A program made the translations under genes and the position numbers. Source: a virus (Duplodnaviria; Heunggongvirae; Uroviricota; Caudoviricetes). From it: 64,000 bases of DNA. The number at the start of each line of letters is the position of its first letter. Within the stretch, counting starts at the first letter, position 1. Positions 1,435-24,027 of the stretch are shown one piece after another. Under the pieces are notes generated by a model. The model had not been told where the DNA came from. It made no database searches and saw only the letters and a list, made by a program, of their open reading frames with translations. The stretch lies in IMG/VR virus record IMGVR_UViG_3300028454_000679; one strand, given 5' to 3'.

Positions 1435-2844
1435 TTACCTCTTAAACTTCACGATCTTGCCAAGGGATTCGAGCATATCGCATTCATCCGTATATTTTAA
1501 GACAAACATCGTTTTCTTTCTTATTTTATTTGGTACAGTGAAGTTAGTTCTGAAACACCCATCCGTAAACACAACATAGCATACATCATGCTTGCAATTC
1601 TCTTGAATATACTCTGTGACCCGTTGGTAGTTAGTTCCACCTGACTCAAACTGTATTGTCTTAGCTAAGCGTGGAATATCTGCCTCTGTCAAATCTAGGA
1701 ACTCTTTGTATACCTTAGTATTCCAAAGATACAGAGATACAGTGCACTTGTAAGACACACAGAGGTCTAAAGCTGTTGATAGAAAAAACTCCACATCCTC
1801 CTGAGTCATTGAGCCAGAAGTGTCCAAAAAGAGTCCTACATTATTGAATCTATCAACAGGACATGGACCTGGCATAACCAACTCATACGGTATATAATGC
1901 CTGTCTGGTGTTTGGAAGGAACTATCCTCTAGGGCAGTATGTTGAGAAAGGAACTTACGTAAATACTTATCCCAACGAATCCTCTCAACCTTAAACAGTT
2001 TTGACAACTGATACATGGCACCACCTTGACACAACTCGGAATAGTCCTTAATAAGTGACTCTGTGAAATTGTCCATAGCGAAGGAATTCATACTATCTTC
2101 CCCACACTCGTTTACTGGTGTGAATAAATCATTGAAGCCAAAATCGTCTGGGTTATCATCATCACTATGTTGTCCCTGAGTACTCCCTGCACTACCTTGA
2201 TTGTCTCCATTCTGCTGACTGTTGCCTTGGTTGTCTTCATCCTGCTGACTATTGCCTTGAGAATCACTCTGCTGACCGCCATCACCACCACTAAAAACTG
2301 CACTCTGTGAGAGACCACGTGGCACAGGCTGCTGGTCTGCTTCTGCTAAAAGTTTTGCGTAAAGTTGCTCTAAAGTGACTTCCTCAAGATCCTCTAAATT
2401 ACCATCAGCATCTTTCAGCAAAAGAGCATGGCTAGGGACTGTACAAAGCTTTTCAGCAGCTACCTCAGTTTTTATATCATTCTGAAGATGCCAGTTAACC
2501 ATATAATCAGCAGCTATATTAAATAGTTCATGATTATAGGATGGTATGTCTTTAGCACGTACAAGATGCCTAAACATAATATGGTACACTTCATGCAGAA
2601 CAACAAATGCGAACTCCTCATCAGTGAGTGTGTTCGCAAAGTCAGCATTTATATAAAGGTGCTTAGTGTCAACTGCCATAGTGGGAATTGTAGAATAAAG
2701 CTTATCCCCTTGCTGTAAAACTGTAGGGTCTCCTAACTTCAGTGTAGCGACACCAAACCACTTCGTTTCTAAAAATAGTCTGGTTCGAATATCATGAAAC
2801 CGCTTTTCTATTGATCTAGCGTTTATTTTAGTCACCTCCATCAC
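1435..2844 (-). CDS. VWA-domain protein with N-terminal HExxH metallopeptidase-like domain (DUF2201-type partner of MoxR ATPases)
   Basis: HEVYHIMFRH (HExxH) in the N-terminal half and DTSGSM (DxSxS MIDAS motif) in the C-terminal half. It lies in the same gene array as a MoxR-like AAA+ ATPase. Confidence 0.65.
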   Translation of the reverse strand: MMEVTKINARSIEKRFHDIRTRLFLETKWFGVATLKLGDPTVLQQGDKLYSTIPTMAVDTKHLYINADFANTLTDEEFAFVVLHEVYHIMFRHLVRAKDIPSYNHELFNIAADYMVNWHLQNDIKTEVAAEKLCTVPSHALLLKDADGNLEDLEEVTLEQLYAKLLAEADQQPVPRGLSQSAVFSGGDGGQQSDSQGNSQQDEDNQGNSQQNGDNQGSAGSTQGQHSDDDNPDDFGFNDLFTPVNECGEDSMNSFAMDNFTESLIKDYSELCQGGAMYQLSKLFKVERIRWDKYLRKFLSQHTALEDSSFQTPDRHYIPYELVMPGPCPVDRFNNVGLFLDTSGSMTQEDVEFFLSTALDLCVSYKCTVSLYLWNTKVYKEFLDLTEADIPRLAKTIQFESGGTNYQRVTEYIQENCKHDVCYVVFTDGCFRTNFTVPNKIRKKTMFVLKYTDECDMLESLGKIVKFKR

Positions 2845-5481: not shown

Positions 5482-6765
5482 CTAAATAATAGTAAGACCA
5501 CTGAAAATATCATCCACAGATTCAACTGCTTGCTGAGCCACTTGAGGCTGCTGAGCTGGCTGTGGTGCAGTGTTCGACGGTTGTACCAATTGCTGAGTAG
5601 ACTGTTGTGATATACCTGCAAAAACACCTGACTGCTGAACACTCTCTGGCTGTGGTGCTAATACATCAGGCGTAGTGTTGCTGTAAACATCACTAAGTGT
5701 GCTAGCCAAGTCACTAACACTGGAAGCATCAGCCAAAAGTGCTCTTTGAGTCACCTCAGGATCCACAGAAGAAATCGCCTGCACAAGAGATGCTTCAACC
5801 TCAGCTGACAACTGGTGTGCCCACTTTGAGATATTGTTATGTGCTAATACTCTAACATCCATATCAAATTCATCCGACTTACAAACATTAGAGTAAATAG
5901 AGATAATACTCTCAACAACAAACTGTCTAGTAGCTGCGTCAGTAGGTACTGCTGGATTCTCACCTGCTATAACTTCCTCAGCAGTTTGCTCGTTTGCGAA
6001 TAACTTTGCATACTTGTAAAACTCATAACCCAGAGTCTCCCCAACACACGCACAGATTTTATTCATAACGATAGTAGAGTTAATATCCCCTGCAACATTC
6101 AAAGTATCAGAAACACGTTTCCAAGTTCTCGGTGATGCGAATACAATCTCGTCCTCATTCTCCGACTGAGTATGCAGACTTGTAGGATGCGATTCTATAT
6201 AGGACGTCACAAGTGGGTTTACACCTTTACCATCCTTACCGCGGTAAACACGGGCATAATCCTCTACCCAGACTTTAGCATCCATCTGCACATTGTAAAT
6301 CTCAAAACGGTTTGCTAATGGTGCAGCTAACTCTTCATAGACACCACCATCGTCCTCCCCATTTCCTAAAGCAATAATAACAGTGTCATCAGGTAGGAAG
6401 TGTCTTCCAAGGCGTCTGTCCAACACAAGCTGGTAAGCAGCAACCTGTACACGTTTTGTAGCTGAAGTAATTTCATCCAAAAGTAGGATAGTCTTTGGAC
6501 CGCCCTCCTTTGGAAACCAATCCGGAATAAGCCAAGTGGTTTCTGTACGAGTTTCATTGGGGTAAATAAGTCCGCACAACTCAACTTCAGACATCTGTGC
6601 CAAACGTAAATCCTCCACGTGATACCCAAGTTCTCTACCAATCTGTTGAATAATCTCAGACTTTCCGATACCAGGTGCACCTAAACCCAAGATAGGTTGC
6701 TTTAATCCACTCTTGATTGTAAATTCAATAATCGACTTAAATTCCCTTGTGTTAATTGATCGCAT
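5482..6765 (-). CDS. MoxR-like AAA+ ATPase
   Basis: Walker A LGLGAPGIGKSE and Walker B ILLLDEITS. Core of ~300 aa followed by a Q/P-rich C-terminal tail. Adjacent to the VWA partner gene. Confidence 0.75.
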   Translation of the reverse strand: MRSINTREFKSIIEFTIKSGLKQPILGLGAPGIGKSEIIQQIGRELGYHVEDLRLAQMSEVELCGLIYPNETRTETTWLIPDWFPKEGGPKTILLLDEITSATKRVQVAAYQLVLDRRLGRHFLPDDTVIIALGNGEDDGGVYEELAAPLANRFEIYNVQMDAKVWVEDYARVYRGKDGKGVNPLVTSYIESHPTSLHTQSENEDEIVFASPRTWKRVSDTLNVAGDINSTIVMNKICACVGETLGYEFYKYAKLFANEQTAEEVIAGENPAVPTDAATRQFVVESIISIYSNVCKSDEFDMDVRVLAHNNISKWAHQLSAEVEASLVQAISSVDPEVTQRALLADASSVSDLASTLSDVYSNTTPDVLAPQPESVQQSGVFAGISQQSTQQLVQPSNTAPQPAQQPQVAQQAVESVDDIFSGLTII

Positions 6766-7795
6766 TGAAACCTCCTAAACTTAACAACTCTTTTTCTTCC
6801 TCTGTTATTTCATCTTTAAATTTGAAAGCAAACCCACCTGCCGTCTCTTGAAATGGATACTGCTTTAGACCCTGAAAATACACATTTGGTATCTCCTGTG
6901 TAAAAATACCTAAGCTGTCTGAAATATATAAACAACTTCGTTCAAATTCCTTCTCATAATACTTATTGAAAGCATCCATTGACGTAAAACGTGTGAACAG
7001 ATTATCTTTGTGCTTGAAACAATTGCTAAACTTAACAGTCTCTGGGAATGTACTGATATCAGCACCTAATTGACGATGGAAGGAATCCTCAACTACCCTC
7101 AGATTCTTCGGATTAAAATTTCTCCAGACTACACTAGTTCTGTAGGAGCTATTCATAAATCGATAAATCCTCTCCAAACACTCACCAGTGAAATCAGTAA
7201 AATCGATACCATCATAATGACGATTGTTAGCAAATGTTAGCTCCTTAGCGTTATTAAAAGATGCTCCTAATTCAAGATAGCACACGCTATCTGACAAGGT
7301 GCGATAAAGCTCAGGTAGAGCAAATCCCTCATACCACTCTATCTTATTCACATTCAAGTCGATAATAGTTCTATGATGGTTGAGAGTGAGTTGCGGTACA
7401 AATCCAGTAAGGTTAAAATCTGTATCAAGTGCAACAGGAAGCATTGTGATAATCTTGGACCCATTAGATCTTGCCTTCTCCCATTTTTTGTAGGCATTTT
7501 TATCACCATCTAACCAGTCAACAATAACCTGGTCATTGAAACTCTTTGGAGAAAACACACTAAAACTACAGGTGCCAGTTGGAATCATCTCAAAAGGATT
7601 AAAGAAAACAAACTTATCTCTCGTTTTATAAACTGCAAGACTGTAATCCTTAGCGAACTGTACAATGTTCTCTGGCTTAAGATGATGCTTTGACACAAAG
7701 ATACCACCTTTTATTGGTAGATAGATAAAACCACGGAGTCTCATTGCCTGTTTAATTGATTCATCAACCATTAGTAACCTCCACCTCTGAACCAT
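6752..7795 (-). CDS. DUF285/BspA-like repeat protein, paralog 4 of 4 (divergent, no shared N-terminus)
   Basis: DFTDFTGECLERIYRFMNSS and WRNFNPKNL-type repeats resembling paralogs 1-3. Located upstream of the MoxR gene. Confidence 0.35.
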   Translation of the reverse strand: MVQRWRLLMVDESIKQAMRLRGFIYLPIKGGIFVSKHHLKPENIVQFAKDYSLAVYKTRDKFVFFNPFEMIPTGTCSFSVFSPKSFNDQVIVDWLDGDKNAYKKWEKARSNGSKIITMLPVALDTDFNLTGFVPQLTLNHHRTIIDLNVNKIEWYEGFALPELYRTLSDSVCYLELGASFNNAKELTFANNRHYDGIDFTDFTGECLERIYRFMNSSYRTSVVWRNFNPKNLRVVEDSFHRQLGADISTFPETVKFSNCFKHKDNLFTRFTSMDAFNKYYEKEFERSCLYISDSLGIFTQEIPNVYFQGLKQYPFQETAGGFAFKFKDEITEEEKELLSLGGFNAIN

Positions 7796-8747
7796 CCAAT
7801 GCCCGCACTACAGTAAAGACATTAGCACTTTTGATTTCCTTGACATACCCAATAGAGCCATCTTCAAATATATACTCATCACCTGCTGACATGGTAGCCA
7901 GGTTAGAGGCAAATGCCTCTGCAATACCCTTATCAAATAGTGTTCCAGAATTCTCTCTAATATAACTTAAAGCTTGTACACATGTGTCAGCCTTTTTGTA
8001 AATTCTGTCTGAGACAAGTGCGTCATAGCAATCCACAATTCTTAAGATTCTCCCATAAATAGGAATCTTTGTACCTACAAGATTGTATGGGTACCCTGAC
8101 CCATCAAAGTTCTCATGATGAGTAAGGACAGCGTACTTAATCTCCTTAGACAAGTTAGCATTGTCCTTAATCATATTGAATCCAACAACAGGGTGCGATT
8201 GTATGCACTCTCGCTCCTCGTCCGTAAATCTGCCTTTCTTCCACATAACATTAGAAGGAATCATCTGCTTACCCAAATCATGTAAAAGACCGGCAATAGC
8301 AAGATCGTAAACCCTAGGTGTTTCCAGACCCAGTCGTATACCAAGTGCCGCTGCGTAGACTGCTACATTAACAGAGTGATTGAATGTGTATGAATCAAAA
8401 ACACACAAGTTCATAAGATTGCTCGTAATAAAACCTCTATCGTTGATAAGTAGCTCAGATGCTATTCTGTTTGCGTAAACAACACAGGCATCAAAGTTCA
8501 TAGACCTAAGAGCATGAATTGTCTCTGCTCTCGTCTTTACAGATATAGTCCCTTCCGCAACGCTTGTTACATCATCCAAGATACACACTTGACTGAAACC
8601 ACGTTTTTGTAGTAACTCTATGTCAGCATTGGTCAACTCGTCGTCTGCGTTTAAAGCAATACCGCCATTGAGATTATAGATAGGAAGAGCTAATCTGTCC
8701 TTTTCACACAATTCCTCAGTTTGGACAAAATGCATAATAATCTCCAT
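7764..8747 (-). CDS. HD-GYP domain phosphodiesterase (cyclic (di)nucleotide phosphodiesterase)
   Basis: LLHDLGK (HD motif) and HHENFDGSGYP (HD-GYP signature) in the C-terminal half. The N-terminal ~150 aa are of unknown function. Confidence 0.75.
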   Translation of the reverse strand: MEIIMHFVQTEELCEKDRLALPIYNLNGGIALNADDELTNADIELLQKRGFSQVCILDDVTSVAEGTISVKTRAETIHALRSMNFDACVVYANRIASELLINDRGFITSNLMNLCVFDSYTFNHSVNVAVYAAALGIRLGLETPRVYDLAIAGLLHDLGKQMIPSNVMWKKGRFTDEERECIQSHPVVGFNMIKDNANLSKEIKYAVLTHHENFDGSGYPYNLVGTKIPIYGRILRIVDCYDALVSDRIYKKADTCVQALSYIRENSGTLFDKGIAEAFASNLATMSAGDEYIFEDGSIGYVKEIKSANVFTVVRALDGSEVEVTNG

Positions 8748-8790: not shown

Positions 8791-10044
8791 CTACTTTATA
8801 ACTACTGGAGTTCCGTAAATAATAAAACTTTCTAACCAATCTGCAAACTTCTCTGGCAGATTTATACCTCCATGAGAGCCTGCGGTTTTGTAAATGTTTC
8901 CACCGAAGGAGCCTCGCCAGTCAGCATCATGTAAGCCGACGCCGGAGTTCGTTAGACGATACCAATGATCTACCCAAGTACAATATCCGTCGCCTCTTAG
9001 GTACTTACCTTGCGGACTTATCTCTGTTACAGTGAATACACCTGATGGAGTATCATAAACACCAAGTGTTCCAGTGACACAGTCAGTCTCCTTGACCACT
9101 TTTCCATCTTTATATACATAAACATGCTGTTTCTTTTTGTTCACATAGATAAAGCTGTTTCCTACATCATCTGGAGCTTGTAGTCCAGTAATAGGTTTTT
9201 GGCTGTAGATCGGAGCAAACTGACCCAAGAAACCTTTATCCTTGTGCTGCTGTAGGAAAGCTTCTGCAGTTTTCTCCTCATCAACAACAAAGCCATATGT
9301 TCCTCCACTAACCTCAATATCCTTATCATTCAGATGAACAACATGTTTACTCCCTGCAGTGTTAAACTTTTCAGACAGCATACTTGCATAGGTTTTAGAA
9401 AGTGAGACAGTGTCTAAGGACACAGTACCTTTCTTGCTAATGGAAACAAACTTCTTAATGGTCTCAAAAGTAAGCGGACATTCCTTTTTAACTTCCCAAG
9501 ACTTGTAACTCTTTAGCTTCTTTAGCTGTTTATCTACTTTGCTATTATTATTTTTAGGCTCCTTTAGCCATTGTTCCACATGATAGATGCCTGCACCCTG
9601 CAATGGGATGCTGTCTACATCACACAAATAAGGCTTATTCTTAGAGGACACTGTTAAATCCTGATTTAGGGTCTTAACCGCAAAAAGAAAAGTTTGCTCA
9701 AAATGGCTCTGTAAAACGCCTTTGCTTCCTGGCTTCACAGACGCTTTAACAAACTTTTCGATTTTATCAGTAGCGGAAAAAAGATTGATATGTTCTATAC
9801 TCTCCTTATCCACACTAAATTCAAACAACTCCTCGTTTGGTATAGTACATTCCATACCAAATGCTTTAAATGTTGACTCTCCTGTGCTCAACTCATCTAC
9901 ATAATCATTCACAAGAGTAGCAGTTTCTCTTTGTACCCTTTTATTAAATTGATGGCACCCTAAAGCTGCCCCTAAAACAATAGCTAAAACAATAAGTGCA
10001 ATTCTTCGTTTCATAAATTCTCCTTGATTCCTAAGTATATTCAT
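8791..10044 (-). CDS. secreted L,D-transpeptidase (YkuD)-like protein, probably catalytically altered
   Basis: Signal peptide (MKRRIALIVLAIVLGAALGC). The C-terminal VGLHDADW....AGSHGGINLP....YGTPVVI matches the YkuD fold, but the SHGC catalytic Cys is replaced by Gly. Confidence 0.5.
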   Translation of the reverse strand: MNILRNQGEFMKRRIALIVLAIVLGAALGCHQFNKRVQRETATLVNDYVDELSTGESTFKAFGMECTIPNEELFEFSVDKESIEHINLFSATDKIEKFVKASVKPGSKGVLQSHFEQTFLFAVKTLNQDLTVSSKNKPYLCDVDSIPLQGAGIYHVEQWLKEPKNNNSKVDKQLKKLKSYKSWEVKKECPLTFETIKKFVSISKKGTVSLDTVSLSKTYASMLSEKFNTAGSKHVVHLNDKDIEVSGGTYGFVVDEEKTAEAFLQQHKDKGFLGQFAPIYSQKPITGLQAPDDVGNSFIYVNKKKQHVYVYKDGKVVKETDCVTGTLGVYDTPSGVFTVTEISPQGKYLRGDGYCTWVDHWYRLTNSGVGLHDADWRGSFGGNIYKTAGSHGGINLPEKFADWLESFIIYGTPVVIK

Positions 10045-10633: not shown

Positions 10634-10729
10634 GTTGTCTAACGTGTTGATATGGTAAAGTGCCTGCTTTGCTCTCATGTACCCTAAGGTACTGCAGGTA
10701 AAATTACTCATATCAACACGTTAAACAAC
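10634..10729. repeat. inverted repeat carrying CTAACGTGTT motif (centromere/operator-like)
   Basis: gttgtctaacgtgttgatatgg and catatcaacacgttaaacaac form an inverted pair about 55 bp apart. Confidence 0.5.
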
Positions 10730-10732
10730 AAT

Positions 10733-11110
10733 AGGGGAGGTGGGGTAGTAAATGCTACCCCTATAATGGAAAATGCAAGCACAAACTAATGACACCTAAC
10801 GTGTTAGCACACCTAAAATCTTTTCACATATCCATTGTACCCAAAGGTACTAAAAGAGTAAAAGGTTGTGCTAACACGTTAGATGTCACAAAATACAAAT
10901 CCCTTGTAAGTTGTCACGTTAGACAACAAAGAGGAGGTCGGGGTAGCAAACACTACCCCTAAAAATGAAAAACACATCAAACTAATGGCACCTAACGTGT
11001 TAGCACACCTAAAATCTTTTTCACTCAAAAAGAATACCCAAAGGTACTAAAAGAATGAAGGTTATGCTAACACGTTAAGTGTCACAAAAACATAAGTCAA
11101 CTTATAAGTC
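10733..11110. repeat. two tandem ~190-bp repeats upstream of parA, each with a hairpin (GGGGTAG-N6-CTACCCC), a TATAAT-like box and two oppositely oriented CTAACACGTTAG sites; candidate parS/centromere
   Basis: Direct comparison of 10733-10925 with 10930-11110 gives about 85% identity. At least 7 copies of the 10-12 bp CTAACGTGTT motif in both orientations occur across 10636-11075. Confidence 0.55.
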
Positions 11111-11167: not shown

Positions 11168-11893
11168 ATGAAAACAATAGCAATAGCAAGCCAAAAGGGT
11201 GGTGTAGGTAAAACAACCACAGCCTTGGAACTCTATGACTGCTTAAAAGTTGCTGGTAAGTCTTGTTTATTCATAGACTTAGACCAACAGTGCAATGCAA
11301 CATCAACACTCGCTAACTTTCCTGACAACTGTAATACTATATATGACGTGCTCAAGAAAAACTGTGTAGCCAAACAAGCACTCCAAGGCGATATAATCCC
11401 TGGCAATCCATTACTCGCTTCAATTGAGTATGAACTCTCGTCAGTTATAGGTGGTGCGTTACGTCTAAAGCAGGCCCTTGCTGGATTAGACTACGATTAC
11501 TGCATAATAGACACGCCACCAAACTTAGGCATATACCTAATAAGTGCACTCATAGCTGCTACAGATGTTATAATACCAGTTAAGGCAGATGTATTCTCAA
11601 TCGAAGGGCTCTCAAACATACTAACGACAGTCAATGAAGTTAAAGAGAACTTCAACCAATCACTAAACATAATGGGTATACTTTTAACAAACTATGACCA
11701 GCGAAGGGAACTCGACCGGAAGATATGGAACACACTACACTATACAAAAATAGATTACCCGGTGTTCAATACCAAAGTACGAGTATGCCAAGACATAACA
11801 AAATCATGGAACAGTAAACAATTACTCTCTGAATACAATCCCAAGTGTAAGGCATATGAAGACTACTCAAAACTAGTAAAGGAGATAATTTAA
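11168..11893 (+). CDS. parA: ParA/Soj-family partition ATPase
   Basis: Deviant Walker A KGGVGKTT, then IDLDQQCN...IIDTPPNLG. 241 aa. RBS GGAGG. Located downstream of the repeat array. Confidence 0.85.
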   Translation: MKTIAIASQKGGVGKTTTALELYDCLKVAGKSCLFIDLDQQCNATSTLANFPDNCNTIYDVLKKNCVAKQALQGDIIPGNPLLASIEYELSSVIGGALRLKQALAGLDYDYCIIDTPPNLGIYLISALIAATDVIIPVKADVFSIEGLSNILTTVNEVKENFNQSLNIMGILLTNYDQRRELDRKIWNTLHYTKIDYPVFNTKVRVCQDITKSWNSKQLLSEYNPKCKAYEDYSKLVKEII

Positions 11894-12244
11894 ATGGCAG
11901 GAGATCAAAAAGTAAATGCAGCATCCTTATTGCTCAGCTCATTACAGACTAAAGAGAAGCAAGCACAAGAACCTCTAGCAACTCCAGAGACCTATGAGCA
12001 CGACTTTGGTGATGTAGACATGCAAGACTTGGAGTTTAACAGAGCAAAAGAACGTCAAGCTACACGAAACAAAATCCTACGAGAGGGTGATAACTTCGTA
12101 GTACAATCTGTGGAACGTAGAAGTAAGAAAAAGAACTTCATGTTTCCGGAATCCCTTGCTGAGAAGTTTGTTCAGGAAGCAAAAGCACTAAATGTTTCTC
12201 AAAACGAACTAATAGTCCAAATTCTTGAACAACGTTATAAGTAG
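11894..12244 (+). CDS. ribbon-helix-helix centromere-binding protein (ParG-like partner of ParA)
   Basis: Start codon abuts the parA stop. The C-terminal KKNFMFPESLAEKFVQEAKALNVSQNELIVQILE is RHH/CopG-like. Confidence 0.5.
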   Translation: MAGDQKVNAASLLLSSLQTKEKQAQEPLATPETYEHDFGDVDMQDLEFNRAKERQATRNKILREGDNFVVQSVERRSKKKNFMFPESLAEKFVQEAKALNVSQNELIVQILEQRYK

Positions 12245-12289
12245 CCTTGGTTGTTTAAAAATTATAATAGATAGATACAACTTATTATA

Positions 12290-12480
12290 CTTCTTTAAGA
12301 GAGGTGAAAATCCCCAAGTAACAAGGGTTTGCACAAGTTTACCCTTACCCTAAAGTAGAAACTTCTGTCCTAAAGATAGTAAACTACTGTATCGCTAGAT
12401 ACAAACTTCTTGTAGTGCAGTAGAGTAAAACTACTACATCTGGTGTATAAACTTCTGTATAGAAAGTAGAAAGTAGTGGC
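12290..12480. repeat. AT-rich region with repeated AAACTTCTGT / TAAACTACT motifs (possible origin-associated repeats)
   Basis: gaaacttctgtcc, caaacttcttgtag and taaacttctgtatag are direct repeats roughly 45 bp apart. Confidence 0.35.
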
Positions 12481-12539
12481 AGGAGAGTAGTAAGTTCAGC
12501 TAAATAGTGCCGAAGTGACTTTGTAAACCACAAAATATA

Positions 12540-12730
12540 GCAGTAACTGCCAAAATTCTACAAAAAGTACAGAACTTCAGTCAAAATTCTACACACTGAT
12601 TGGTAAAGCTTAGAGTACTCTACAAAATATACGGAACTTCAAAAAATCTACAAAATGAGCAGAACTTCCAAAAACGGGAAGAACAGTGAAAAATGTAGAG
12701 AAAGTTCTTGACAAAATGTAGAGACTATTG
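12540..12730. promoter_or_regulatory. iteron array plus promoter upstream of rep (putative replication origin)
   Basis: At least 3 direct repeats of ~22 bp, TCTACAAAAnnnnCnGAACTTC (12556, 12618, 12646), plus AAAATGTAGAGA x2. TTGACA (12708-12713), 17-bp spacer, TACACT, then RBS GGAGG. Confidence 0.5.
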
Positions 12731-12753
12731 TACACTCCTATTGGAGGTGTAGT

Positions 12754-13902
12754 ATGAGTAAAGAACCCACAACGTATGAGTATACATCGCTTGCTAAAGA
12801 CAACCTACTAATAAGTGCAAAGTATAGAGCAACACTACTAGAGCTTCGCGTGACCTATGCCTGCTTATTCATGATACAAAACAATAGCTATACAGAGAAA
12901 CCAGACGGCATCTATGTAAGCATGAAAGCAGGTGAACTCCGTGAGCTGATTGGTGCAAACTCGGGCTCTTTCTACAAGAGTCTTCTTCCTGTTGCTCAAA
13001 GTATGACAGCAAGGAGTCTGGGTATGGTAAACCCGGAGAATGAAGAGTTTGACTTTATTAGCCTAATAACTGAAGCCAAGTACAAAGATAGCGTGTTAAC
13101 AGTAGTCTTTAACAATAAGCTAAAGAAACATCTTGTTGCACTAAAGATGGACTATACAACAATACCAAAGCAGTACATAATGAAATTGAACTCAAATTAT
13201 GCTTTTAGGCTTTACGAGATACTGAAGAAGTCATGTTTTTATAGTAAAAGTTACAATGGGGAACGCAATGGCTATTTCCTCATACGACTCTCATTAGCAG
13301 AACTAAAATTGGATTTAGGTGTTGTAAATTCTGCACTAGACTCAGTTCAAAAAGAGCTACGTGGGTCCAAGACACCAAATTATGAAAAAGCTGTACAAGC
13401 CTCATCTGAAAAACTCTATGAGGACTGGTCATCATTCAAACGCTCATGTTTGGACAAGCCAATACGTGAGATAAACCAGAAAACTGACATACACGTTGAG
13501 TATGAAACTCATAGAGCCGGTCTAGGTGGTAAAGTGCATGCAGTGTCATTCACAGTGTATGTAAAAGAACTAGACAAGTCAAATACAACTGAAACCACCG
13601 GACTGACTGATCAAGAGAAGTTTTTATTTCACATGGAAGTTTACAAACTATTTGAGCAATACAAATTATCAATAGACTTCATTCAAAAACTCTCTGAGGC
13701 ATCAGACTACACCCTAGCCACACTCAAGGAAGTTGAAAAGGTTCTTAGAGCCTCTAATGGTGTGGCAAACATAGAGGGATGGCTTCTCAGTGCAGTAAAA
13801 GAGAGGTACTCACTACACCCTGCACAATCCGTAAACTTCAGGCAACGCGAGTATGATTACGATGAACTTGAAAGACGAATGCTTAACCGGAAAAGAACCT
13901 AA
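12754..13902 (+). CDS. replication initiator protein, Rep_3-like (iteron-type plasmid Rep)
   Basis: N-terminus YTSLAKDNLLISAKYRATLLELRVTYACLFMIQNN resembles the Rep_3/RepB motif (ARY.LS..E.RL.L..I..I). Iterons lie immediately upstream. Confidence 0.5.
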   Translation: MSKEPTTYEYTSLAKDNLLISAKYRATLLELRVTYACLFMIQNNSYTEKPDGIYVSMKAGELRELIGANSGSFYKSLLPVAQSMTARSLGMVNPENEEFDFISLITEAKYKDSVLTVVFNNKLKKHLVALKMDYTTIPKQYIMKLNSNYAFRLYEILKKSCFYSKSYNGERNGYFLIRLSLAELKLDLGVVNSALDSVQKELRGSKTPNYEKAVQASSEKLYEDWSSFKRSCLDKPIREINQKTDIHVEYETHRAGLGGKVHAVSFTVYVKELDKSNTTETTGLTDQEKFLFHMEVYKLFEQYKLSIDFIQKLSEASDYTLATLKEVEKVLRASNGVANIEGWLLSAVKERYSLHPAQSVNFRQREYDYDELERRMLNRKRT

Positions 13903-14002: not shown

Positions 14003-15076
14003 CTAAAGAGGCTCCACTCGAAGCTTTTTACACCTTGACTTAGAATAGAGTTTTACCTTGTATATGTCTTTTACAGTTGATGGCACTGTCACACTGTAAA
14101 CAGTTTTATTTGGTTTAACGCTCTCACGAGAGAAATGGAAAACATCACCTTGGGGCGTTACAAGTTTAGCAGTTGCAGTGGAATCCTTACACTCAAACCT
14201 AAAAGTGACAGGGTCTTCTGAAGGATGCTTCACACGAAACTTTTTTGTGTGACCATTCCTAAACTGTCCCTTTACAGAGACTTTCTCCACAGTTACACCT
14301 TTAAATGGATAAGTAACTGTTACATCCCCTGGCAAGTAGTTCACGCGGAACACTGCCTTACTCTTTCCCACACACTCAGGGTAAATTGTGTACCCTGAGC
14401 TATCCAAAGTAATACAAGGATATTCTAAATCTGAAACAAATCTTACGGTAACTATGGCACGCTTAACGGCACCGCACTCTTTAACAACTCTAACTCTTTG
14501 CTCCTCACTAGAACACGGAATAAACTCTCCATCCTGGCTGTAATCAAAGTAAGGCTCTGTGCAGTAAACTGGGCTTGAGAGCGTTTCAGTAAAACTAGTA
14601 CCCCTAACAGTCCTAGTGAACTTCTTACCATTCTTACGCTTGAAAACAACAGTGCAGCTTTTACCATCCTTTGCTGGATAAAAGCCATAGGGCACATCCT
14701 GCAAGGTCACCTTACTGCCATTCACACTGTAAAGGTAAGCACTCTTCCCATTGTACTTGCACAGTAATTTACCGCTCGTTGTCAACCTAACTCTAAATGG
14801 TAGGACATCAAAGTACATAAATGCTGGTGTGTAGTTTAGCGGTTCTACAGTATTCGAACACTTCACATCACCTGTTGTCTTTGGACTAGGTTGTGGAGCT
14901 GCTGCAGGAGTGGAGTTTTGAGAAACAGACCCCGAGCACCCTGAGAAAAACATACACACCAACAGAGTTAGAGCTAAAACACGTTTATTTACGACCAAAC
15001 CGATGTTACGGCAACCCAAGATGACCCATTGTAGTATTTTAACACACCTGGTGTGTAAGAAGATGTGTCTACCCAC
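14003..15076 (-). CDS. secreted lipoprotein, beta-rich (Ig-like) hypothetical
   Basis: Lipobox-like LLVCMFFSGC near the N-terminus; rich in T/V/K beta-strand pattern. The true start is probably internal to the listed ORF. Confidence 0.35.
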   Translation of the reverse strand: MGRHIFLHTRCVKILQWVILGCRNIGLVVNKRVLALTLLVCMFFSGCSGSVSQNSTPAAAPQPSPKTTGDVKCSNTVEPLNYTPAFMYFDVLPFRVRLTTSGKLLCKYNGKSAYLYSVNGSKVTLQDVPYGFYPAKDGKSCTVVFKRKNGKKFTRTVRGTSFTETLSSPVYCTEPYFDYSQDGEFIPCSSEEQRVRVVKECGAVKRAIVTVRFVSDLEYPCITLDSSGYTIYPECVGKSKAVFRVNYLPGDVTVTYPFKGVTVEKVSVKGQFRNGHTKKFRVKHPSEDPVTFRFECKDSTATAKLVTPQGDVFHFSRESVKPNKTVYSVTVPSTVKDIYKVKLYSKSRCKKLRVEPL

Positions 15077-15252
15077 AACTGGGATACATTAGTAGGCGCT
15101 GTATTACCAACAACGCAAGGTCCACCCGTTTGGTTCGTTGTAACCTTAGGTGCAGCCTTTACAGAATCAGCCAGGGCTGCTACTGCAAAAAAGGACGCCA
15201 AAAATCCGTAAATGCCTTTTTGAAGAAATTCTTTTCTAGACATACCTGACAT
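14989..15252 (-). CDS. small secreted protein with twin-arginine-like (RK) signal peptide; candidate Tat substrate
   Basis: Start refined to MSGMSRKEFLQKGIYGFLASFFAVAALADSVKA-AP. This gives S-R-K-x-F-L-x-K, a hydrophobic core and an AxA cleavage site. GGAGGAA RBS. Begins 2 nt after the tatC stop. Confidence 0.4.
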   Translation of the reverse strand: MSGMSRKEFLQKGIYGFLASFFAVAALADSVKAAPKVTTNQTGGPCVVGNTAPTNVSQLWVDTSSYTPGVLKYYNGSSWVAVTSVWS

Positions 15253-15253
15253 A

Positions 15254-15991
15254 CTAACATTCCTCCGAACTACGTTTTTCAATAAATGAACAAATAAAAA
15301 TACTAAACTGATACAGGAGTACAATAGGCACTGCAACTGCAATCTGGCTCACAACATCAGGCGGTGTTATAATTGCAGCTAATACAAAAGCAAGTACAAT
15401 TACAACCTTTCGTACCTTTCGTAAAAATGCTGTATGGACAAGACCTATCTTGCACAACACAACATTCACTAAAGGTATCTCACAGATAATACCTATTGCT
15501 AATCCCAATCCCACAAACAATCCCACAAAACTGTCCACACTAACAAGTGGTGTGACACCAAAGGCGGAATACCCCGTACCAAGTAAGAATTGTATGGTAA
15601 ATGGGATGAGCCACCTAAATGATGCATACATACCTGCCACAAAGACTCCATACCCAATGAAGGTGAAAAAGAACACCTTAAGCACTTTTACATTAAAAGC
15701 AGGTAAGACAAAAGCCAATACATTGTAAATGAGCAATGGTAAAGTGAGTAGGAAACTCAGAGTGAGACTGAGCTTTATCTCCTGCATAAATAGTGACTGT
15801 GGTGTTAAATACATAAATCTGAATCCAGCATTGTCCCCCACAAGCAGTATGCTTTGTATAACGGTCTTCCTGAACACGTAGGCTATCATAAACACAGCTA
15901 TAAGGAACACTGCGCAGATAAACAGCCTATGAGTTAGCTCCATCAGATGTTCCTGAGGATTCATCTGATTTACTGGTTTCTTCCTCTTCAT
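15254..15991 (-). CDS. tatC: Sec-independent protein translocase TatC
   Basis: Six predicted TM segments. N-terminal LMELTHRL motif and C-terminal ITPPDVVSQIAVAVPIVLLYQFSIF, which matches the TatC TPPDxxSQ..LA.P...LYE motif. Confidence 0.8.
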   Translation of the reverse strand: MKRKKPVNQMNPQEHLMELTHRLFICAVFLIAVFMIAYVFRKTVIQSILLVGDNAGFRFMYLTPQSLFMQEIKLSLTLSFLLTLPLLIYNVLAFVLPAFNVKVLKVFFFTFIGYGVFVAGMYASFRWLIPFTIQFLLGTGYSAFGVTPLVSVDSFVGLFVGLGLAIGIICEIPLVNVVLCKIGLVHTAFLRKVRKVVIVLAFVLAAIITPPDVVSQIAVAVPIVLLYQFSIFICSFIEKRSSEEC

Positions 15992-16121
15992 TTTCCTTCA
16001 AAGCCTTTCTGAAAATCTTTAAAGAGTCTCCTGCACCCTTTGCTAACTTAGGTAATTGAGTTGCCCCTCCTAAAAAGACTATAATTAACAAAACAATTAA
16101 CAATTCTGTTGTACTAACCAT
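15927..16121 (-). CDS. tatA: TatA/E-family translocase subunit
   Basis: Start refined to MVSTTELLIVLLIIVFLGGATQLPKLAKGAGDSLKIFRKAL: TM helix, Gly hinge and amphipathic helix. Acidic S/T-rich tail. Confidence 0.65.
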   Translation of the reverse strand: MVSTTELLIVLLIIVFLGGATQLPKLAKGAGDSLKIFRKALKENEEEETSKSDESSGTSDGANS

Positions 16122-16359
16122 TACTATCCTCCTTATTTGCAGTGTCCTCAGTGGTGGATACTGCATCTGCTAAATCCTGTTTGACCTCGTTAAGCGTATC
16201 CTTGACTTCATTTATAGGTACAGAGAGGGTCTCTGCACCCTCTCTGTAAGCTTTCATAGCTTTACCCAACTTCTCTGCGAACTGAGCTATCTGCTCTGGA
16301 GAGAAGAATATATGACAGCAAACAAGGATAACTATTAATTCTGGAACTCCAATACTCAT
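16114..16359 (-). CDS. tatB: second TatA/TatB-family subunit
   Basis: MSIGVPELIVILVCCHIFFSPEQIAQFAEKLGKAMKAYREG has TatA/B topology (TM, hinge FSP, amphipathic helix) with a longer charged tail. Confidence 0.55.
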   Translation of the reverse strand: MSIGVPELIVILVCCHIFFSPEQIAQFAEKLGKAMKAYREGAETLSVPINEVKDTLNEVKQDLADAVSTTEDTANKEDSNG

Positions 16360-16368
16360 ATGTCACCT

Positions 16369-19185: not shown

Positions 19186-19232
19186 TCTACCAGCACCTCT
19201 TTAAATTTTATAGTAATTCTAATGCGGTAATT

Positions 19233-20498: not shown

Positions 20499-20509
20499 AA
20501 TTCTCCTCT

Positions 20510-20998
20510 TTACTGTTGCGGTTGTTCTTGCTGTTGTTCAGTAGACTCTGTAGTCTGCTGAGTTTGCTGTTCAGTAGACTGTACTGTCTGTTGTTCAGTA
20601 GATTCTGTTGGCTGCTGTGTCTGCTGTTCAGTAGATTCTGTAGACTGCTGTGTCTGTTGTTCAGTAGATTCTGTCGGCTGCTGTTGCTGTGGTTCAGTCG
20701 GCTGTACTGTTTGCTGTACAGGCTGAGCAGTTTGCTGGTCATGGAACAGTAAGTTACTATGAGTGAAGTAAAGCACTCCAAAAGTAACAGCAGCTGCAAG
20801 AACACCTATTAAAAGTTTTACTACAAGCTTTGGTGCACCCGAAGATTTTGAAGACTGTGTGAAAACTGCTCCACAATTCCAGCATTCCTCTTCACCCTCC
20901 TCAACCTCGGCGTGACACTTAGTGCATTCCCAAAGCTCCTCATCTTTCACCCAACGAATTCTCGCTTTCAAGGTAAGGTACCTCCTTTGTAAATTCAA
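20510..20998 (-). CDS. zinc-ribbon membrane protein with Q/T/E-rich tandem repeats
   Basis: CTKCHAEVEEGEEECWNCGAVF zinc ribbon, a TM segment, then 7 copies of a TESTEQQTQQ-like decapeptide encoded by a 30-bp DNA tandem repeat (20540-20700). Confidence 0.45.
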   Translation of the reverse strand: MNLQRRYLTLKARIRWVKDEELWECTKCHAEVEEGEEECWNCGAVFTQSSKSSGAPKLVVKLLIGVLAAAVTFGVLYFTHSNLLFHDQQTAQPVQQTVQPTEPQQQQPTESTEQQTQQSTESTEQQTQQPTESTEQQTVQSTEQQTQQTTESTEQQQEQPQQ

Positions 20999-21233
20999 TT
21001 TCCAGTAACGGTGTGTTGGGTTTAATGGTAATACTACTTAATCCATCATTATAAAGTGTAGCCTTAATAGCACCTTGCTGTAAGACGTCACTATTATTCT
21101 TAATACCCGTAACACTAATACACTTTACAGAAACAAGACTTTTTGAGATAAATCCAGTTTCGTATTGCACTTCCTCCTTTGGTCTAATTTTTAAAGACTC
21201 TTTGCAGTACAATACTTCAGGCAATAAGCTCAC
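20940..21233 (-). CDS. hypothetical protein
   Basis: 97-aa ORF in the co-directional array. Confidence 0.3.
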   Translation of the reverse strand: MSLLPEVLYCKESLKIRPKEEVQYETGFISKSLVSVKCISVTGIKNNSDVLQQGAIKATLYNDGLSSITIKPNTPLLEIEFTKEVPYLESENSLGER

Positions 21234-21582: not shown

Positions 21583-21594
21583 ACATCCACCTAC

Positions 21595-22053: not shown

Positions 22054-22062
22054 AATAATACC

Positions 22063-22629: not shown

Positions 22630-22632
22630 GTC

Positions 22633-24025: not shown

Positions 24026-24027
24026 AT

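What the first reader, a model, noticed from the sequence alone, without database searches (positions are those of the whole stretch)
7764..8747. HD-GYP phosphodiesterase on the element (with a YcgR/PilZ receptor at 38263..38985 and an MCP at 45587..47605): mobile cyclic-nucleotide and chemotaxis signalling genes
Seen in sequence: a clear HD (LLHDLGK) plus HHENFDGSGYP signature; a separate protein with PilZ motifs RxxxR and NxSxxG preceded by a YcgR-N-like domain; and a full-length MCP with the canonical [21 protein letters not shown] signalling motif. Established knowledge: HD-GYP enzymes hydrolyse c-di-GMP, and some hydrolyse 3'3'-cGAMP. YcgR/PilZ proteins are c-di-GMP effectors that brake flagella. 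Inference: the element may reprogram host motility and biofilm behaviour. Alternatively the HD-GYP could drain cyclic-oligonucleotide immune signals (CBASS-type).
Basis: partly seen in the sequence, partly recalled or inferred. Interest (0 to 1): 0.55.

Follow-up and report, generated by a model that had tools for sequence, protein, structure and literature searches.

The report
Motility-signalling genes on a cryptic megaplasmid
A circular element of about 234 kb, plasmid-like and probably from a gut or rumen Lachnospiraceae bacterium, carries three separate, intact but very diverged genes for swimming control (a c-di-GMP-degrading enzyme, a c-di-GMP-binding motor-clutch protein and a chemoreceptor); such cargo is already well known on plasmids.

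Summary
All three genes are real, intact and pass profile tests. They are an HD-GYP phosphodiesterase (7764..8735, true start at M5), a two-domain PilZ protein (38263..38985) and a dCache–HAMP–MCP chemoreceptor (45587..47605).

The genes are not a module. They lie 30 kb and 7 kb apart in separate transcription units among ORFans. No GGDEF, EAL, Che, flagellar or CBASS gene and no c-di-GMP riboswitch was found in the window.

The carrier is a circular replicon of about 234 kb with ParA and a Rep_3 initiator. Nothing in the four collections searched resembles it closely. No transfer or virion genes were seen, so "mobile" is unproven.

Cellular relatives of the HD-GYP are chromosomal and kinase-controlled, and one sits beside flagellar and chemotaxis genes. 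That favours c-di-GMP and motility signalling over anti-CBASS activity.

Plasmid-borne HD-GYP genes (650 records) and MCP genes (at least 4,800 records) are commonplace. Verdict: a new, divergent member of a known kind, of modest interest.

The parts
7764..8735 (-). HD-GYP phosphodiesterase gene. It encodes 323 aa from M5; the mechanical ORF extends to 8747. Architecture: an N-terminal domain of about 115 aa, the HD-GYP catalytic domain, and a C-terminal tail of about 45 aa. There is no REC domain.
   Evidence: Pfam HD_5 at 1.3e-35. PDB matches are PmGH 4MCW at 2.9e-32 and V-cGAP3 5Z7C at 7.7e-24. The catalytic residues are invariant in the family alignment. A GGAG lies before the ATG at 8735. 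An identical 323-aa protein, P0001, occurs on 8 contigs.
6752..7771 (-). Gene for a 339-aa protein of unknown function. It overlaps the end of the HD-GYP gene by 8 nt, so the two are probably translationally coupled.
   Evidence: Gene calls on L001. No Pfam or NCBIfam hit.
5482..6765 (-). AAA_5 (MoxR/CobS-like) ATPase. It overlaps the preceding gene, so it belongs to the same co-directional gene string as the HD-GYP.
   Evidence: Pfam AAA_5. tblastn matches in 815 phage records, with jumbo phages among the best rows (phage G, PA5oct).
38263..38985 (-). Two-domain MotI/YcgR-like PilZ protein of 240 aa, a predicted c-di-GMP receptor.
39331..39349 (-). Terminator-like hairpin followed by T10, upstream of the PilZ gene. 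It separates the PilZ gene from the upstream genes.
   Evidence: A promoter-like site lies at 39042..39013 in the same scan, but promoter-like sites there are no more frequent than in shuffled sequence.
45587..47605 (-). Methyl-accepting chemotaxis protein of 672 aa: two TM segments, a dCache_1 sensor, HAMP, and a signalling domain whose length matches T. maritima TM1143.
   Evidence: Pfam. AAGGAG RBS. Residues 363-664 match residues 5-306 of 2CH7 TM1143, an equal span. The best non-self homolog is 27% identical.
45550..45575 (-). Terminator-like hairpin directly after the MCP stop codon.
11168..11893 (+). ParA-type partition ATPase of the replicon.
   Evidence: Pfam AAA_31 at 1.7e-44 and CbiA.
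12754..13902 (+). Rep_3-family replication initiator of the replicon.
   Evidence: Pfam Rep3_N at 3.5e-22 and Rep3_C at 2.1e-10. The closest matches (25-31% identity) are plasmid Rep proteins of Butyrivibrio, Roseburia, Thermoanaerobacterium and Clostridium.

Best explanation
The window is part of a circular extrachromosomal replicon of about 234 kb with 40% G+C. It has ParA and a Rep_3 initiator, and nearly all genes lie on one strand. It is of the same general kind as the cryptic, ORFan-rich megaplasmids of Butyrivibrio and other Lachnospiraceae.

Scattered among its cargo are three independent accessory genes. Each is an old, strongly diverged copy of a signalling gene that is common on Clostridia chromosomes.

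1. **HD-GYP enzyme.** It has a complete catalytic motif set and most likely hydrolyses c-di-GMP. It lacks the third-metal Glu, as does its whole family, so a two-metal site is predicted. Unlike most of its cellular relatives it has no receiver domain and no adjacent histidine kinase. It is therefore probably not under phosphorelay control and acts as an extra c-di-GMP sink whenever it is expressed.
2. **MotI/YcgR-type PilZ protein.** It most likely binds c-di-GMP through its RRxxxR and NxSxxG motifs. By analogy with B. subtilis MotI, it would then act on the flagellar stator or rotor to stop rotation.
3. **Chemoreceptor.** It has a dCache sensor and a canonical signalling tip. It most likely inserts into the host's CheA/CheW array and adds a new ligand specificity.

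Shown here: gene integrity, domain and family membership, motif conservation, fold, genomic arrangement, and the replicon markers.

Inferred: substrate, ligand binding, motor target, host identity and the net effect on swimming or biofilm.
For: **HD-GYP**
- HD_5 scores 1.3e-35.
- The alignment to PmGH puts H124, H156-D157, H185, H210-H211 and D239 on the metal ligands, and GYP is intact.
- All of these, plus K160, D242 and R248, are invariant across family members.
- The family gave at least 600 pattern matches, of which 598 were confirmed as relatives, in the one-genome-per-species collection. The nearest, at 34-39% identity, are in Roseburia, Anaerotignum, Agathobacter and Pseudobutyrivibrio.
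- Most close homologs are 482-aa proteins with a C-terminal REC domain.
- Their neighbours are enriched in hybrid histidine kinases: of 100 neighbouring ORFs, 12 hit HATPase_c, 10 HisKA and 10 Response_reg.
- One REC-less relative (P0005, 36%) lies next to GGDEF, MCP, CheB, CheV, FliY, FliM, FliL, MotB and MotA genes.

**PilZ protein**
- PilZ scores 4.5e-9.
- An exhaustive HMMER search found 63 relatives, mostly two-domain proteins of about 210-250 aa.
- R117, R121 and G150 are invariant, and R116 and S147 nearly so.
- 4 of 58 relatives hit Pfam PilZNR.
- The family profile hits MotI 5VX6 over both domains at E 1.3e-6.
- The MotI clutch mechanism is described in PMC7064775.

**MCP**
- dCache_1, HAMP and MCPsignal hits.
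- The signalling tip is conserved with Tsr, and the signalling domain has the same span as TM1143.
- RBS and its own terminator.

**Replicon**
- ParA and Rep_3.
- The Rep protein is nearest to Butyrivibrio and Roseburia megaplasmid Reps.
- Circularity follows from two assemblies.
- The description of Butyrivibrio megaplasmids fits: 186-361 kb, 38-39% G+C, mostly unknown proteins (PMC2914790).

**Precedent**
-.
Against: - No biochemical evidence exists for any of the three proteins.
- The host is not identified. The element is absent from the one-genome-per-species collection searched. Whether the host is flagellated or uses c-di-GMP is inferred only from the taxa of the nearest homologs.
- No diguanylate cyclase, CheA/CheW or flagellar gene was found in the window, and none is listed among the annotated flanking genes. 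All three proteins would therefore depend on host partners, yet they are only 27-41% identical to any known cellular homolog. That raises doubt about compatibility.
- The PilZ family's cellular members are stand-alone genes in housekeeping neighbourhoods, not flagellar ones. The motor target therefore rests on structural analogy alone.
- A phosphodiesterase and a c-di-GMP-activated brake have opposite expected effects on motility, so the net phenotype is unpredictable.
- The AAA_5 gene two genes downstream of the HD-GYP is of a type common in phages, including jumbo phages. Four tRNAs, thyA and a Gmk-like gene are also present. A phage-plasmid or giant-phage identity is therefore not excluded.
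Confidence: 0.62

Rival explanations
1. Counter-defence. The HD-GYP degrades cyclic-oligonucleotide immune signals such as 3'3'-cGAMP from CBASS. That would protect the element, or a phage stage of it, rather than tune c-di-GMP.
For: - HD-GYP enzymes specific for 3'3'-cGAMP exist. V-cGAP3 (5Z7C) is the second-best PDB match at 7.7e-24 and shares the Tyr at the PmGH Glu185 position (YTAGH against YTFNH).
- The enzyme lacks the REC control of its cellular relatives.
- It sits two genes upstream of an ATPase of a type common in phages.
- A Microcystis jumbo phage carries a homolog annotated as a cGAMP phosphodiesterase.
Against: - The Tyr is invariant across the whole cellular family, including the kinase-linked REC forms. 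It says nothing about cGAMP.
- PmGH, a c-di-GMP enzyme, is the better match (116 against 88 bits).
- The tandem pseudo-HD-GYP plus HD-GYP architecture of V-cGAP3 is absent.
- No CBASS, CD-NTase or Cap gene was hit in the window.
- A relative sits among GGDEF, flagellar and chemotaxis genes.
- A c-di-GMP receptor with intact motifs is on the same element.
- As far as I know, and in the 14 papers that mention HD-GYP together with CBASS and phage, no HD-GYP anti-CBASS protein has been described.
Confidence: 0.07
2. Passive or decaying cargo. The three genes are hitch-hiking copies with no present role in host behaviour, either not expressed or unable to work with host partners.
For: - Divergence from all cellular homologs is extreme: 27-41% identity.
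- No partner genes were found in the window, and none is listed among the annotated flanking genes.
- The surrounding genes are mostly ORFans.
- The promoter scan is no better than chance.
Against: - All three ORFs are full length, with every functional motif intact.
- Good RBSs precede the HD-GYP and MCP starts.
- The identical HD-GYP protein was recovered from several independent samples.
- The PilZ family alignment gives a very confident fold. Strong conservation of functional residues despite deep divergence argues for purifying selection.
Confidence: 0.15
3. The PilZ protein is a c-di-GMP receptor, but its target is not the flagellar motor. It could control an element-specific process such as replication, partition, transfer or envelope remodelling, or it could act as a c-di-GMP sponge.
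For: - Cellular family members are not next to flagellar genes.
- The window protein itself gets no PilZNR Pfam hit.
- It is probably co-transcribed with a zinc-ribbon protein and a guanylate-kinase-like protein.
Against: - The best sequence-profile and structure matches over both domains are to MotI.
- From my own knowledge, not checked here, B. subtilis motI is likewise not in the flagellar operon.
- A chemoreceptor and a c-di-GMP phosphodiesterase on the same element fit a motility theme.
Confidence: 0.25
4. The carrier is a giant phage or phage-plasmid rather than a plasmid, and the signalling genes are auxiliary genes used during infection.
For: - Four tRNA genes.
- thyA, a Gmk-like kinase, PARG, RadC and a weak Lar-like zinc-ribbon match.
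- An AAA_5 ATPase matched in 815 phage records.
- Several PHROG families of unknown function, a collagen-like 'tail fibre' hit, extreme ORFan content and one-strand gene order.
Against: - No capsid, portal, terminase, tail or baseplate hit among the 87 window proteins. None is listed among the annotated flanking genes either.
- ParA and a Rep_3 initiator are present.
- The element was not found in IMG/VR by an exact 32-mer.
- The collagen hit is a low-complexity repeat match.
- The cargo includes TatA/TatC, signal peptidase, sortase and a PBP, which I regard as more typical of megaplasmids or chromids.
Confidence: 0.2

Closest known systems
Stand-alone and REC-linked HD-GYP c-di-GMP phosphodiesterases of Clostridia/Lachnospiraceae (RpfG-type; solved relative PmGH, PDB 4MCW)
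   Same: Same three-part architecture: an N-terminal domain of about 115 aa, the HD-GYP domain, and a short C-terminal tail. Every catalytic and GYP residue is conserved. REC-less forms of 333-343 aa also occur in cellular genomes.
   Different: - At most 41% identical to any other sequence.
- No REC domain and no neighbouring histidine kinase.
- Located on an extrachromosomal replicon, in a gene string with an unknown protein and a phage-type AAA_5 ATPase.
- Tyr replaces the third-metal Glu of PmGH, as in the whole family.
B. subtilis MotI (DgrA/YpfA), the c-di-GMP-dependent flagellar clutch (PDB 5VX6), and the wider YcgR/PlzD group
   Different: - About 11% sequence identity to MotI.
- It belongs to a sparse, separate family of 63 representatives among 1.84 billion, with only one above 28% identity.
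- It has an inserted helix (residues 34-43) in the N-domain and a long C-terminal helix (217-239).
- It is carried on a megaplasmid-like element.
- The target is untested.
The MCP of T. maritima TM1143 (2CH7); from my own knowledge this represents the 44-heptad (44H) class typical of Firmicutes and Thermotogae
   Same: The cytoplasmic domain has the same span as 2CH7 (302 residues each), and the CheA/CheW-binding tip is canonical. It has a dCache_1 sensor, HAMP and two TM segments.
   Different: The best non-self match is only 27% identical. In the alignment with Tsr, Tsr's EE and EQ pairs in the N-terminal helix are matched by DS and ND. No che genes were found in the window.
c-di-GMP and chemotaxis genes on plasmids, ICEs and genomic islands. 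Examples: the C. perfringens plasmid DGC/PDE pair, PvrR on PAPI-1, the Shewanella algae chemotaxis plus c-di-GMP island, and ICEs and plasmids of acidophiles
   Same: Accessory replicons or islands that carry c-di-GMP turnover proteins, receptors and chemotaxis genes and are thought to alter host behaviour (PMC10333796). There are 650 plasmid records with HD-GYP homologs and at least 4,800 with MCP homologs.
   Different: The host lineage is probably anaerobic Lachnospiraceae. The carrier has no sequenced relative. The genes are far more diverged than typical recently captured cargo. A MotI-type receptor of this family is not found on any PLSDB plasmid.
Butyrivibrio megaplasmids (pCY360, pCY186; B. 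fibrisolvens 242-kb plasmid)
   Same: Size is 186-361 kb and G+C 38-39%. Most proteins are of unknown function with little database homology (PMC2914790). They have a Rep_3-type initiator, and the nearest Rep match is 31%.
   Different: No nucleotide similarity was found, and no PLSDB record matched more than one of seven concatenated window proteins. The element carries four tRNAs and phage-like genes.

Membership tests
HD-GYP phosphodiesterase (Pfam HD_5 / PF13487) | Profile match above the curated threshold | tested here: met
   HD_5 scores 123.1 bits against a cutoff of 27.2, E 1.3e-35, over residues 120-273.
HD-GYP phosphodiesterase (Pfam HD_5 / PF13487) | Metal-ligand set H...HD...H...HH...D, aligned to a solved active enzyme | tested here: met
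   H124, H156-D157, H185, H210-H211 and D239 align to the PmGH ligands. They are invariant in the family. The eighth ligand, PmGH Glu185 for the third metal, is Tyr120, so a two-metal site is predicted.
HD-GYP phosphodiesterase (Pfam HD_5 / PF13487) | GYP motif (HHExxDGxGYP) | tested here: met
   HHENFDGSGYP at residues 210-220, invariant in the family.
HD-GYP phosphodiesterase (Pfam HD_5 / PF13487) | Hydrolysis of c-di-GMP | not testable with these tools
   This needs an enzyme assay.
3'3'-cGAMP-specific HD-GYP (V-cGAP type) | Closest similarity to, and the architecture of, V-cGAPs (tandem degenerate plus active HD-GYP domains in V-cGAP3) | tested here: not met
   V-cGAP3 5Z7C scores 88 bits, below PmGH at 116 bits. 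The N-terminal pseudo-HD-GYP region of V-cGAP3 matches only the query's single HD-GYP domain, and weakly. cGAMP activity itself is not testable here.
YcgR/MotI-type two-domain PilZ receptors | PilZ domain profile match | tested here: met
   PF07238 scores 37 bits against a cutoff of 22.5. All 58 aligned relatives match PilZ.
YcgR/MotI-type two-domain PilZ receptors | c-di-GMP-binding motifs RxxxR and D/NxSxxG | tested here: met
   R116-R117-N-A-Y-R121 and N145-V-S147-T-R-G150. R117, R121 and G150 are invariant, and R116 and S147 are conserved in at least 90% of sequences.
YcgR/MotI-type two-domain PilZ receptors | N-terminal PilZN/YcgR-N-type beta-barrel domain | tested here: met
YcgR/MotI-type two-domain PilZ receptors | c-di-GMP-dependent binding to MotA, FliG or FliM, and inhibition of motility | not testable with these tools
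   Analogy only. The MotI mechanism is cited from PMC7064775.
Methyl-accepting chemotaxis protein | MCPsignal domain with a conserved hairpin tip, HAMP, a periplasmic sensor and two TM segments | tested here: met
   MCPsignal scores 116.7 bits (cutoff 34.6), HAMP 32.1 (25) and dCache_1 59.4 (45). The tip aligns with Tsr, and the span equals that of 2CH7. The TM segments are visible in the sequence.
Methyl-accepting chemotaxis protein | Cognate CheA/CheW/CheR/CheB partners encoded alongside | tested here: not met
   No Che or flagellar Pfam family was found among the window proteins, and none is listed among the annotated flanking genes. The MCP must rely on host genes.
Plasmid (theta-type, Rep_3 family) | Initiator plus partition genes, and a circular extrachromosomal molecule | tested here: met
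   Rep3_N/Rep3_C and ParA. Candidate repeats lie upstream. Two assemblies of 234.3 kb are circularly permuted.
Mobile (self-transmissible or mobilisable) element | Relaxase/T4SS, integrase, or virion genes | tested here: not met
   None was found among the 87 window proteins, and none is listed among the annotated flanking genes. About 60% of the element was not examined.
Anti-CBASS / cyclic-oligonucleotide counter-defence | Similarity to known anti-CBASS proteins, or association with CBASS loci | tested here: not met
   PADLOC gave no CBASS component among the 87 window proteins. No literature precedent for an HD-GYP anti-CBASS protein was found.

The most novel reading that the evidence does not exclude
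A previously unsampled lineage of giant (~234 kb) extrachromosomal elements in gut or rumen Lachnospiraceae has long maintained its own, deeply diverged chain for controlling host swimming. The chain consists of a chemoreceptor input, an unregulated c-di-GMP sink and a MotI-like motor clutch. The element uses it to steer host behaviour for its own spread, or the HD-GYP doubles as the first HD-GYP-type enzyme that destroys cyclic-nucleotide immune signals.
Probability: 0.1. Interest if true: 0.65.

Novelty: new member of a known kind. Interest (0 to 1): 0.3.

Why it matters
If the three proteins are active, the element would give its host an extra chemoreceptor specificity, a c-di-GMP sink that escapes phosphorelay control, and an extra motor brake. 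A cryptic megaplasmid could then shift the motile-versus-sessile decision of an abundant group of gut and rumen butyrate producers.

That is useful for understanding what these largely unannotated Lachnospiraceae megaplasmids do. It does not change any concept, because accessory replicons carrying c-di-GMP and chemotaxis genes are well documented.

The more unusual facts are about the carrier. It is a 234-kb circular replicon with no relative in the plasmid, phage, IMG/VR or species-representative genome collections searched here. Its PilZ protein belongs to a very sparse family.

Tried and rejected
1. **REC position.** I first read the 482-aa homologs as having REC at the N-terminus. Reading the sequences showed the REC is C-terminal and that REC-less forms are common in cells. 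'Truncated' is therefore too strong. 'REC-less and kinase-less' is what the data show.
2. **Single-sequence AF2 of the PilZ protein.** It failed, with pLDDT 38. Only the run with the 58-sequence alignment was used.
3. **PDB search with the PilZ protein alone.** It found nothing at E up to 1, and the word-indexed search found only the protein itself. The exhaustive HMMER search was needed.
4. **The mrk precedent.** I considered the mrk cluster (MrkH PilZ plus MrkJ EAL) as a precedent for a plasmid carrying both a PDE and a PilZ receptor. The paper says plasmid mrk cassettes lack mrkH and mrkJ, so I dropped it.
5. **Locating the element or sister elements.** Several searches found nothing:
   - Megablast against phages and plasmids.
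   - An exact 32-mer in the species-representative genomes, IMG/VR and JGI metagenomes.
   - A PilZ-pattern scan of metagenomes.
   - A Rep scan of IMG/VR, which gave only a 20-residue chance-like match.
   - The search for related loci with the 58-sequence PilZ alignment, which failed for lack of a conserved stretch.
7. **Sister-element test.** The contigs carrying the nearest HD-GYP relative (L098) and the nearest PilZ relative (L004) share no other gene with the window except ParA. I could not show a conserved gene set across related elements.
8. **c-di-GMP riboswitches.** None was found in the window at Rfam gathering thresholds.
9. **Weak PADLOC hits.** The pVip hits most likely come from the radical SAM maturase. 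The ZorA and LmuB hits could not be assigned to a protein, because that scan mode does not report which member matched, and I suspect coiled-coil segments. I did not treat any of them as defence systems.


Full report

Yes. The three ORFs exist on the minus strand at the stated places, and each passes Pfam well above the curated thresholds.

| Gene | Window coordinates | Pfam result |
|---|---|---|
| HD-GYP | 7764..8747 | HD_5 E 1.3e-35 (123 bits, cutoff 27) |
| PilZ | 38263..38985 | PilZ E 4.5e-9 (37 bits, cutoff 22.5) |
| MCP | 45587..47605 | dCache_1 5e-16, HAMP 1.5e-7, MCPsignal 1.3e-33 |

Two small coordinate points:
- The HD-GYP gene most likely starts at the second ATG, at 8735. A GGAG lies 6 nt upstream. 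Homologs begin at the equivalent Met. The database copy is 323 aa.
An AAGGAG lies 7 nt upstream, although the mechanical ORF runs on to 47692.

**2.

*HD-GYP.*
- In the alignment to the solved, active enzyme PmGH (4MCW, E 2.9e-32), H124, H156-D157, H185, H210-H211 and D239 fall on the metal ligands. HHENFDGSGYP falls on the GYP loop.
- These residues, plus K160, D242 and R248, are invariant across nine family members.
- The only difference is at PmGH Glu185 (ETQNH). From my own knowledge this is the extra ligand of the third iron. Here it is Tyr120 (YTFNH).
- The Tyr is invariant in the whole family and also occurs in V-cGAP3 (YTAGH). It predicts a two-metal site. It is not evidence of inactivation or of cGAMP specificity.

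*PilZ.*
- The protein is an orphan in ordinary searches. It has no PDB relative at E up to 1, and the word-indexed search of 5.8 billion proteins finds only itself.
- An exhaustive HMMER pass over 1.84 billion representatives found 63 relatives. One is 40% identical and the rest are 20-35% identical. Most are about 210-250 aa and align over most of their length.
- In their alignment R117, R121 and G150 are invariant, and R116 and S147 nearly so.
- All 58 aligned members hit PilZ, and 4 hit PilZNR, the YcgR N-terminal family.
- The family profile hits B. subtilis YpfA/MotI (5VX6) across both domains at E 1.3e-6, followed by PP4397 and VCA0042.
- With this alignment AlphaFold gives pLDDT 93.5.

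*MCP.*
- The signalling tip aligns with Tsr.
- Residues 363-664 match residues 5-306 of T. maritima TM1143 (2CH7), an equal span of 302 residues.
- From my own knowledge TM1143 is a 44-heptad receptor, the class typical of Firmicutes.

**3. What carries the genes?**

- The window is about 40% G+C, with almost every gene on the minus strand.
- The exception is a ParA gene and a Rep_3 initiator on the plus strand, at 11168..13902. Tandem repeats lie upstream of each.
- The Rep protein is nearest, at 25-31% identity, to Rep proteins of large plasmids of Butyrivibrio fibrisolvens, B. proteoclasticus (pCY186), Roseburia, Thermoanaerobacterium and Clostridium.
- The identical HD-GYP protein occurs on eight contigs from several samples. 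Two independent assemblies give 234,325 bp and 234,317 bp with different start points, which indicates a circular molecule of about 234 kb.
- I found no nucleotide match in the phage or plasmid collections. An exact 32-mer was absent from the species-representative genomes, IMG/VR and JGI metagenomes.
- No PLSDB record matched more than one of seven concatenated window proteins. The matches listed were to the flotillin, the MoxR-type ATPase or one protein of unknown function.

Annotation covered 87 window proteins.
- **Found:** thyA, TatA/TatC, an S26 signal peptidase, sortase, flotillin, YkuD, PARG, RadC, a metallophosphoesterase, a guanylate-kinase-like protein, a radical-SAM CXXX-repeat maturase and four tRNAs. 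Most of the remaining proteins are ORFans.
- **Not found:** capsid, portal, terminase or tail genes, and relaxase, T4SS or integrase genes. None is listed among the annotated flanking genes either.

The best description is a cryptic megaplasmid of the Lachnospiraceae type. This matches the published description of Butyrivibrio megaplasmids: 186-361 kb, 38-39% G+C, and mainly proteins of unknown function with little homology (PMC2914790).

A phage-plasmid or giant-phage identity is not excluded. The tRNAs, the nucleotide-metabolism genes and an AAA_5 ATPase matched in 815 phage records all point that way. 'Mobile' is therefore not demonstrated.

**4. Are the three genes a system?**

No.
- They lie 30 kb and 7 kb apart.
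- A strong terminator lies upstream of the PilZ gene (39349..39331).
- A terminator directly follows the MCP stop codon (45575..45550).
- The HD-GYP sits in a tightly packed gene string in the order YkuD, HD-GYP, a 339-aa unknown protein, an AAA_5 ATPase, and onward to a DUF2201/VWA protein. The HD-GYP, 339-aa and AAA_5 genes overlap end to end.
- The window contains no GGDEF, EAL, Che, flagellar or CBASS gene. It has no c-di-GMP riboswitch at Rfam gathering thresholds.

**5. Where do the genes come from, and what does that say about function?**

*HD-GYP family.*
- It is very large in Clostridia. There were at least 600 pattern matches, 598 confirmed as relatives, in the species-representative genomes. 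The kept loci are mostly on large contigs or complete chromosomes.
- The nearest relatives, at 34-39% identity, are in Roseburia, Anaerotignum, Agathobacter, Pseudobutyrivibrio and Lachnospiraceae MAGs, many from ruminant or other animal gut samples.
- Most close homologs are 482 aa with a C-terminal receiver domain.
- Their neighbours are enriched in hybrid histidine kinases: of 100 neighbouring ORFs, 12 hit HATPase_c, 10 HisKA and 10 Response_reg.
- REC-less forms also exist in cells. One (P0005, 36%) lies in a block with GGDEF proteins, an MCP, CheB, CheV, FliY, FliM, FliL, MotB and MotA.
- The relative with the highest identity (P0006, 41% over 82% of the query) is on another ParA/ParB, ORFan-rich contig. 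That contig shares nothing else with this window except ParA.

*PilZ family.* Its cellular members are stand-alone genes in ordinary chromosomal neighbourhoods such as murB-rapZ-whiA-hpr and hrcA-grpE.

*Divergence.* All three element proteins are unusually far from anything else. The best non-self identity is 39-41% for the HD-GYP, 40% and then at most 35% for the PilZ protein, and 27% for the MCP. Yet each keeps its functional residues. That argues for long residence under purifying selection rather than recent capture or decay.

**6. Most likely mechanism (inference)**

- The HD-GYP hydrolyses c-di-GMP. Lacking REC and kinase control, it acts as a sink whenever it is expressed.
- The PilZ protein binds c-di-GMP and, like MotI, acts on the stator to disengage the motor (mechanism from PMC7064775).
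- The MCP joins the host chemoreceptor array and adds a ligand specificity.
- All three need host partners. The sink and the brake have opposing effects, so the net phenotype cannot be predicted.

The CBASS-draining alternative has no positive evidence.
- PmGH is a better match than V-cGAP3.
- The V-cGAP3 tandem architecture is absent.
- The family context is c-di-GMP and two-component signalling.
- No CBASS genes are present.
- I found no precedent for it.

I give this alternative about 7%.

**7. Comparison with what is known, and novelty**

- Accessory replicons and islands carrying c-di-GMP turnover proteins, receptors and chemotaxis genes are documented. A review states that 6-10% of plasmids carry c-di-GMP turnover genes. 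Its examples include the C. perfringens plasmid DGC/PDE pair, PvrR on PAPI-1, and a Shewanella island with chemotaxis and c-di-GMP genes (PMC10333796).
- In PLSDB, 650 records hold an HD-GYP homolog and at least 4,800 hold an MCP homolog.
- Only the MotI-like PilZ family has no plasmid-borne relative there.

The finding is therefore a new, divergent member of a known kind. The carrier replicon is the more novel object, but it lies outside the finding as stated.

**8. Verdict**

The domain functions are very likely. 'Module' and 'mobile' are not shown. The anti-CBASS reading is unlikely.
- Interest is modest, at 0.3.

Noticed in passing
window 41093..44790 (-): A complete-looking peptide-maturation cluster lies between the PilZ and MCP genes. 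It has a radical SAM/SPASM maturase of the 'CXXX-repeat target' family (42236..43666; TIGR04115, 419.8 bits against a cutoff of 350). Four Cys-rich proteins full of CxxC/CxxxC repeats flank it, at 41093..41530, 41582..42214, 43624..44028 and 44215..44790. Three of the four end in near-identical tails (…GC(N/K)(S/T)GC(L/M)ASS…).
   Followed up: partly
window 23939..24026, 29314..29389, 29883..29957, 34574..34642 (-): The element carries four tRNA genes. ARAGORN calls Ser-TGA, Met-CAT and Gln-TTG. Rfam adds a fourth at 34574..34642 that ARAGORN did not report. This is unusual for a plasmid and common in large phages.
   Followed up: partly
whole window; contigs ena:ERZ27247021:k141_88331 and jgi:3300021319:Ga0214520_100095: The carrier is a circular replicon of about 234.3 kb, recovered from at least five samples. 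No similar record was found in PLSDB, INPHARED, IMG/VR or the species-representative genomes. Nearly all genes are on one strand. GC skew is negative in all but one 2-kb window, the one covering the plus-strand rep gene, and shows no lasting reversal there.
   Followed up: partly
window 15254..16359, 31218..32744, 8791..10044 (-); L001:20715 onward: The cargo is rich in envelope and secretion genes. Located ones are TatA (16114..16359), TatC (15254..15991), flotillin/SPFH (31218..32744) and the L,D-transpeptidase YkuD (8791..10044). An S26 signal peptidase, a sortase and a protein with a trigger-factor C-terminal domain were also hit, but their coordinates are not resolved because they came from a batch scan. 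A class A PBP lies just outside the window's left edge.
   Followed up: no
window 1435..2844 and 5482..6765 (-): An AAA_5 (MoxR/CobS-like) ATPase and a DUF2201 metallopeptidase/VWA protein sit in the same gene string as the HD-GYP. The ATPase has tblastn matches in 815 phage records, with jumbo phages among the best rows (Bacillus phage G, PA5oct). In Thermus phage phiFa a second aligned piece lies nearby.
   Followed up: partly
window 37361..37876 and 54896..55657 (-): Two nucleotide-metabolism genes are present. One is a short, divergent guanylate-kinase-like protein (171 aa; TIGR03263 64 bits against a cutoff of 160), two genes downstream of the PilZ gene and probably co-transcribed with it. 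The other is a thymidylate synthase. A link between GMP from c-di-GMP breakdown and the kinase is speculative.
   Followed up: no
window 10717..11089, 12349..12390, 12619..12674: Repeats flank the replication and partition genes. A 196-bp unit occurs 1.9 times upstream of parA. Two-copy 22-bp and 28-bp repeats lie between the small gene after parA and rep. These are candidate parS or iteron sites.
   Followed up: no
L098 (ena:ERZ28436046 NODE_192, 63.6 kb) and L099 (logan:ERR14098864_1089, 117 kb): The HD-GYP relative with the highest identity (41%) sits on another ParA/ParB, NERD, Toprim and ORFan contig. A 36% relative sits in a chromosomal block with GGDEF, MCP, CheB, CheV, FliY, FliM, FliL, MotB and MotA genes.
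   Followed up: partly
window, unresolved members of the batch scan (14003..35658 or 54379..63411): A microbial-type poly(ADP-ribose) glycohydrolase (PARG_cat_microb, 3.7e-29) and a RadC-like JAB protein were hit. A weak Lar-like zinc-ribbon match lies at 37876..38205. Genes of these kinds are often linked to conflict between mobile elements and hosts.
   Followed up: no
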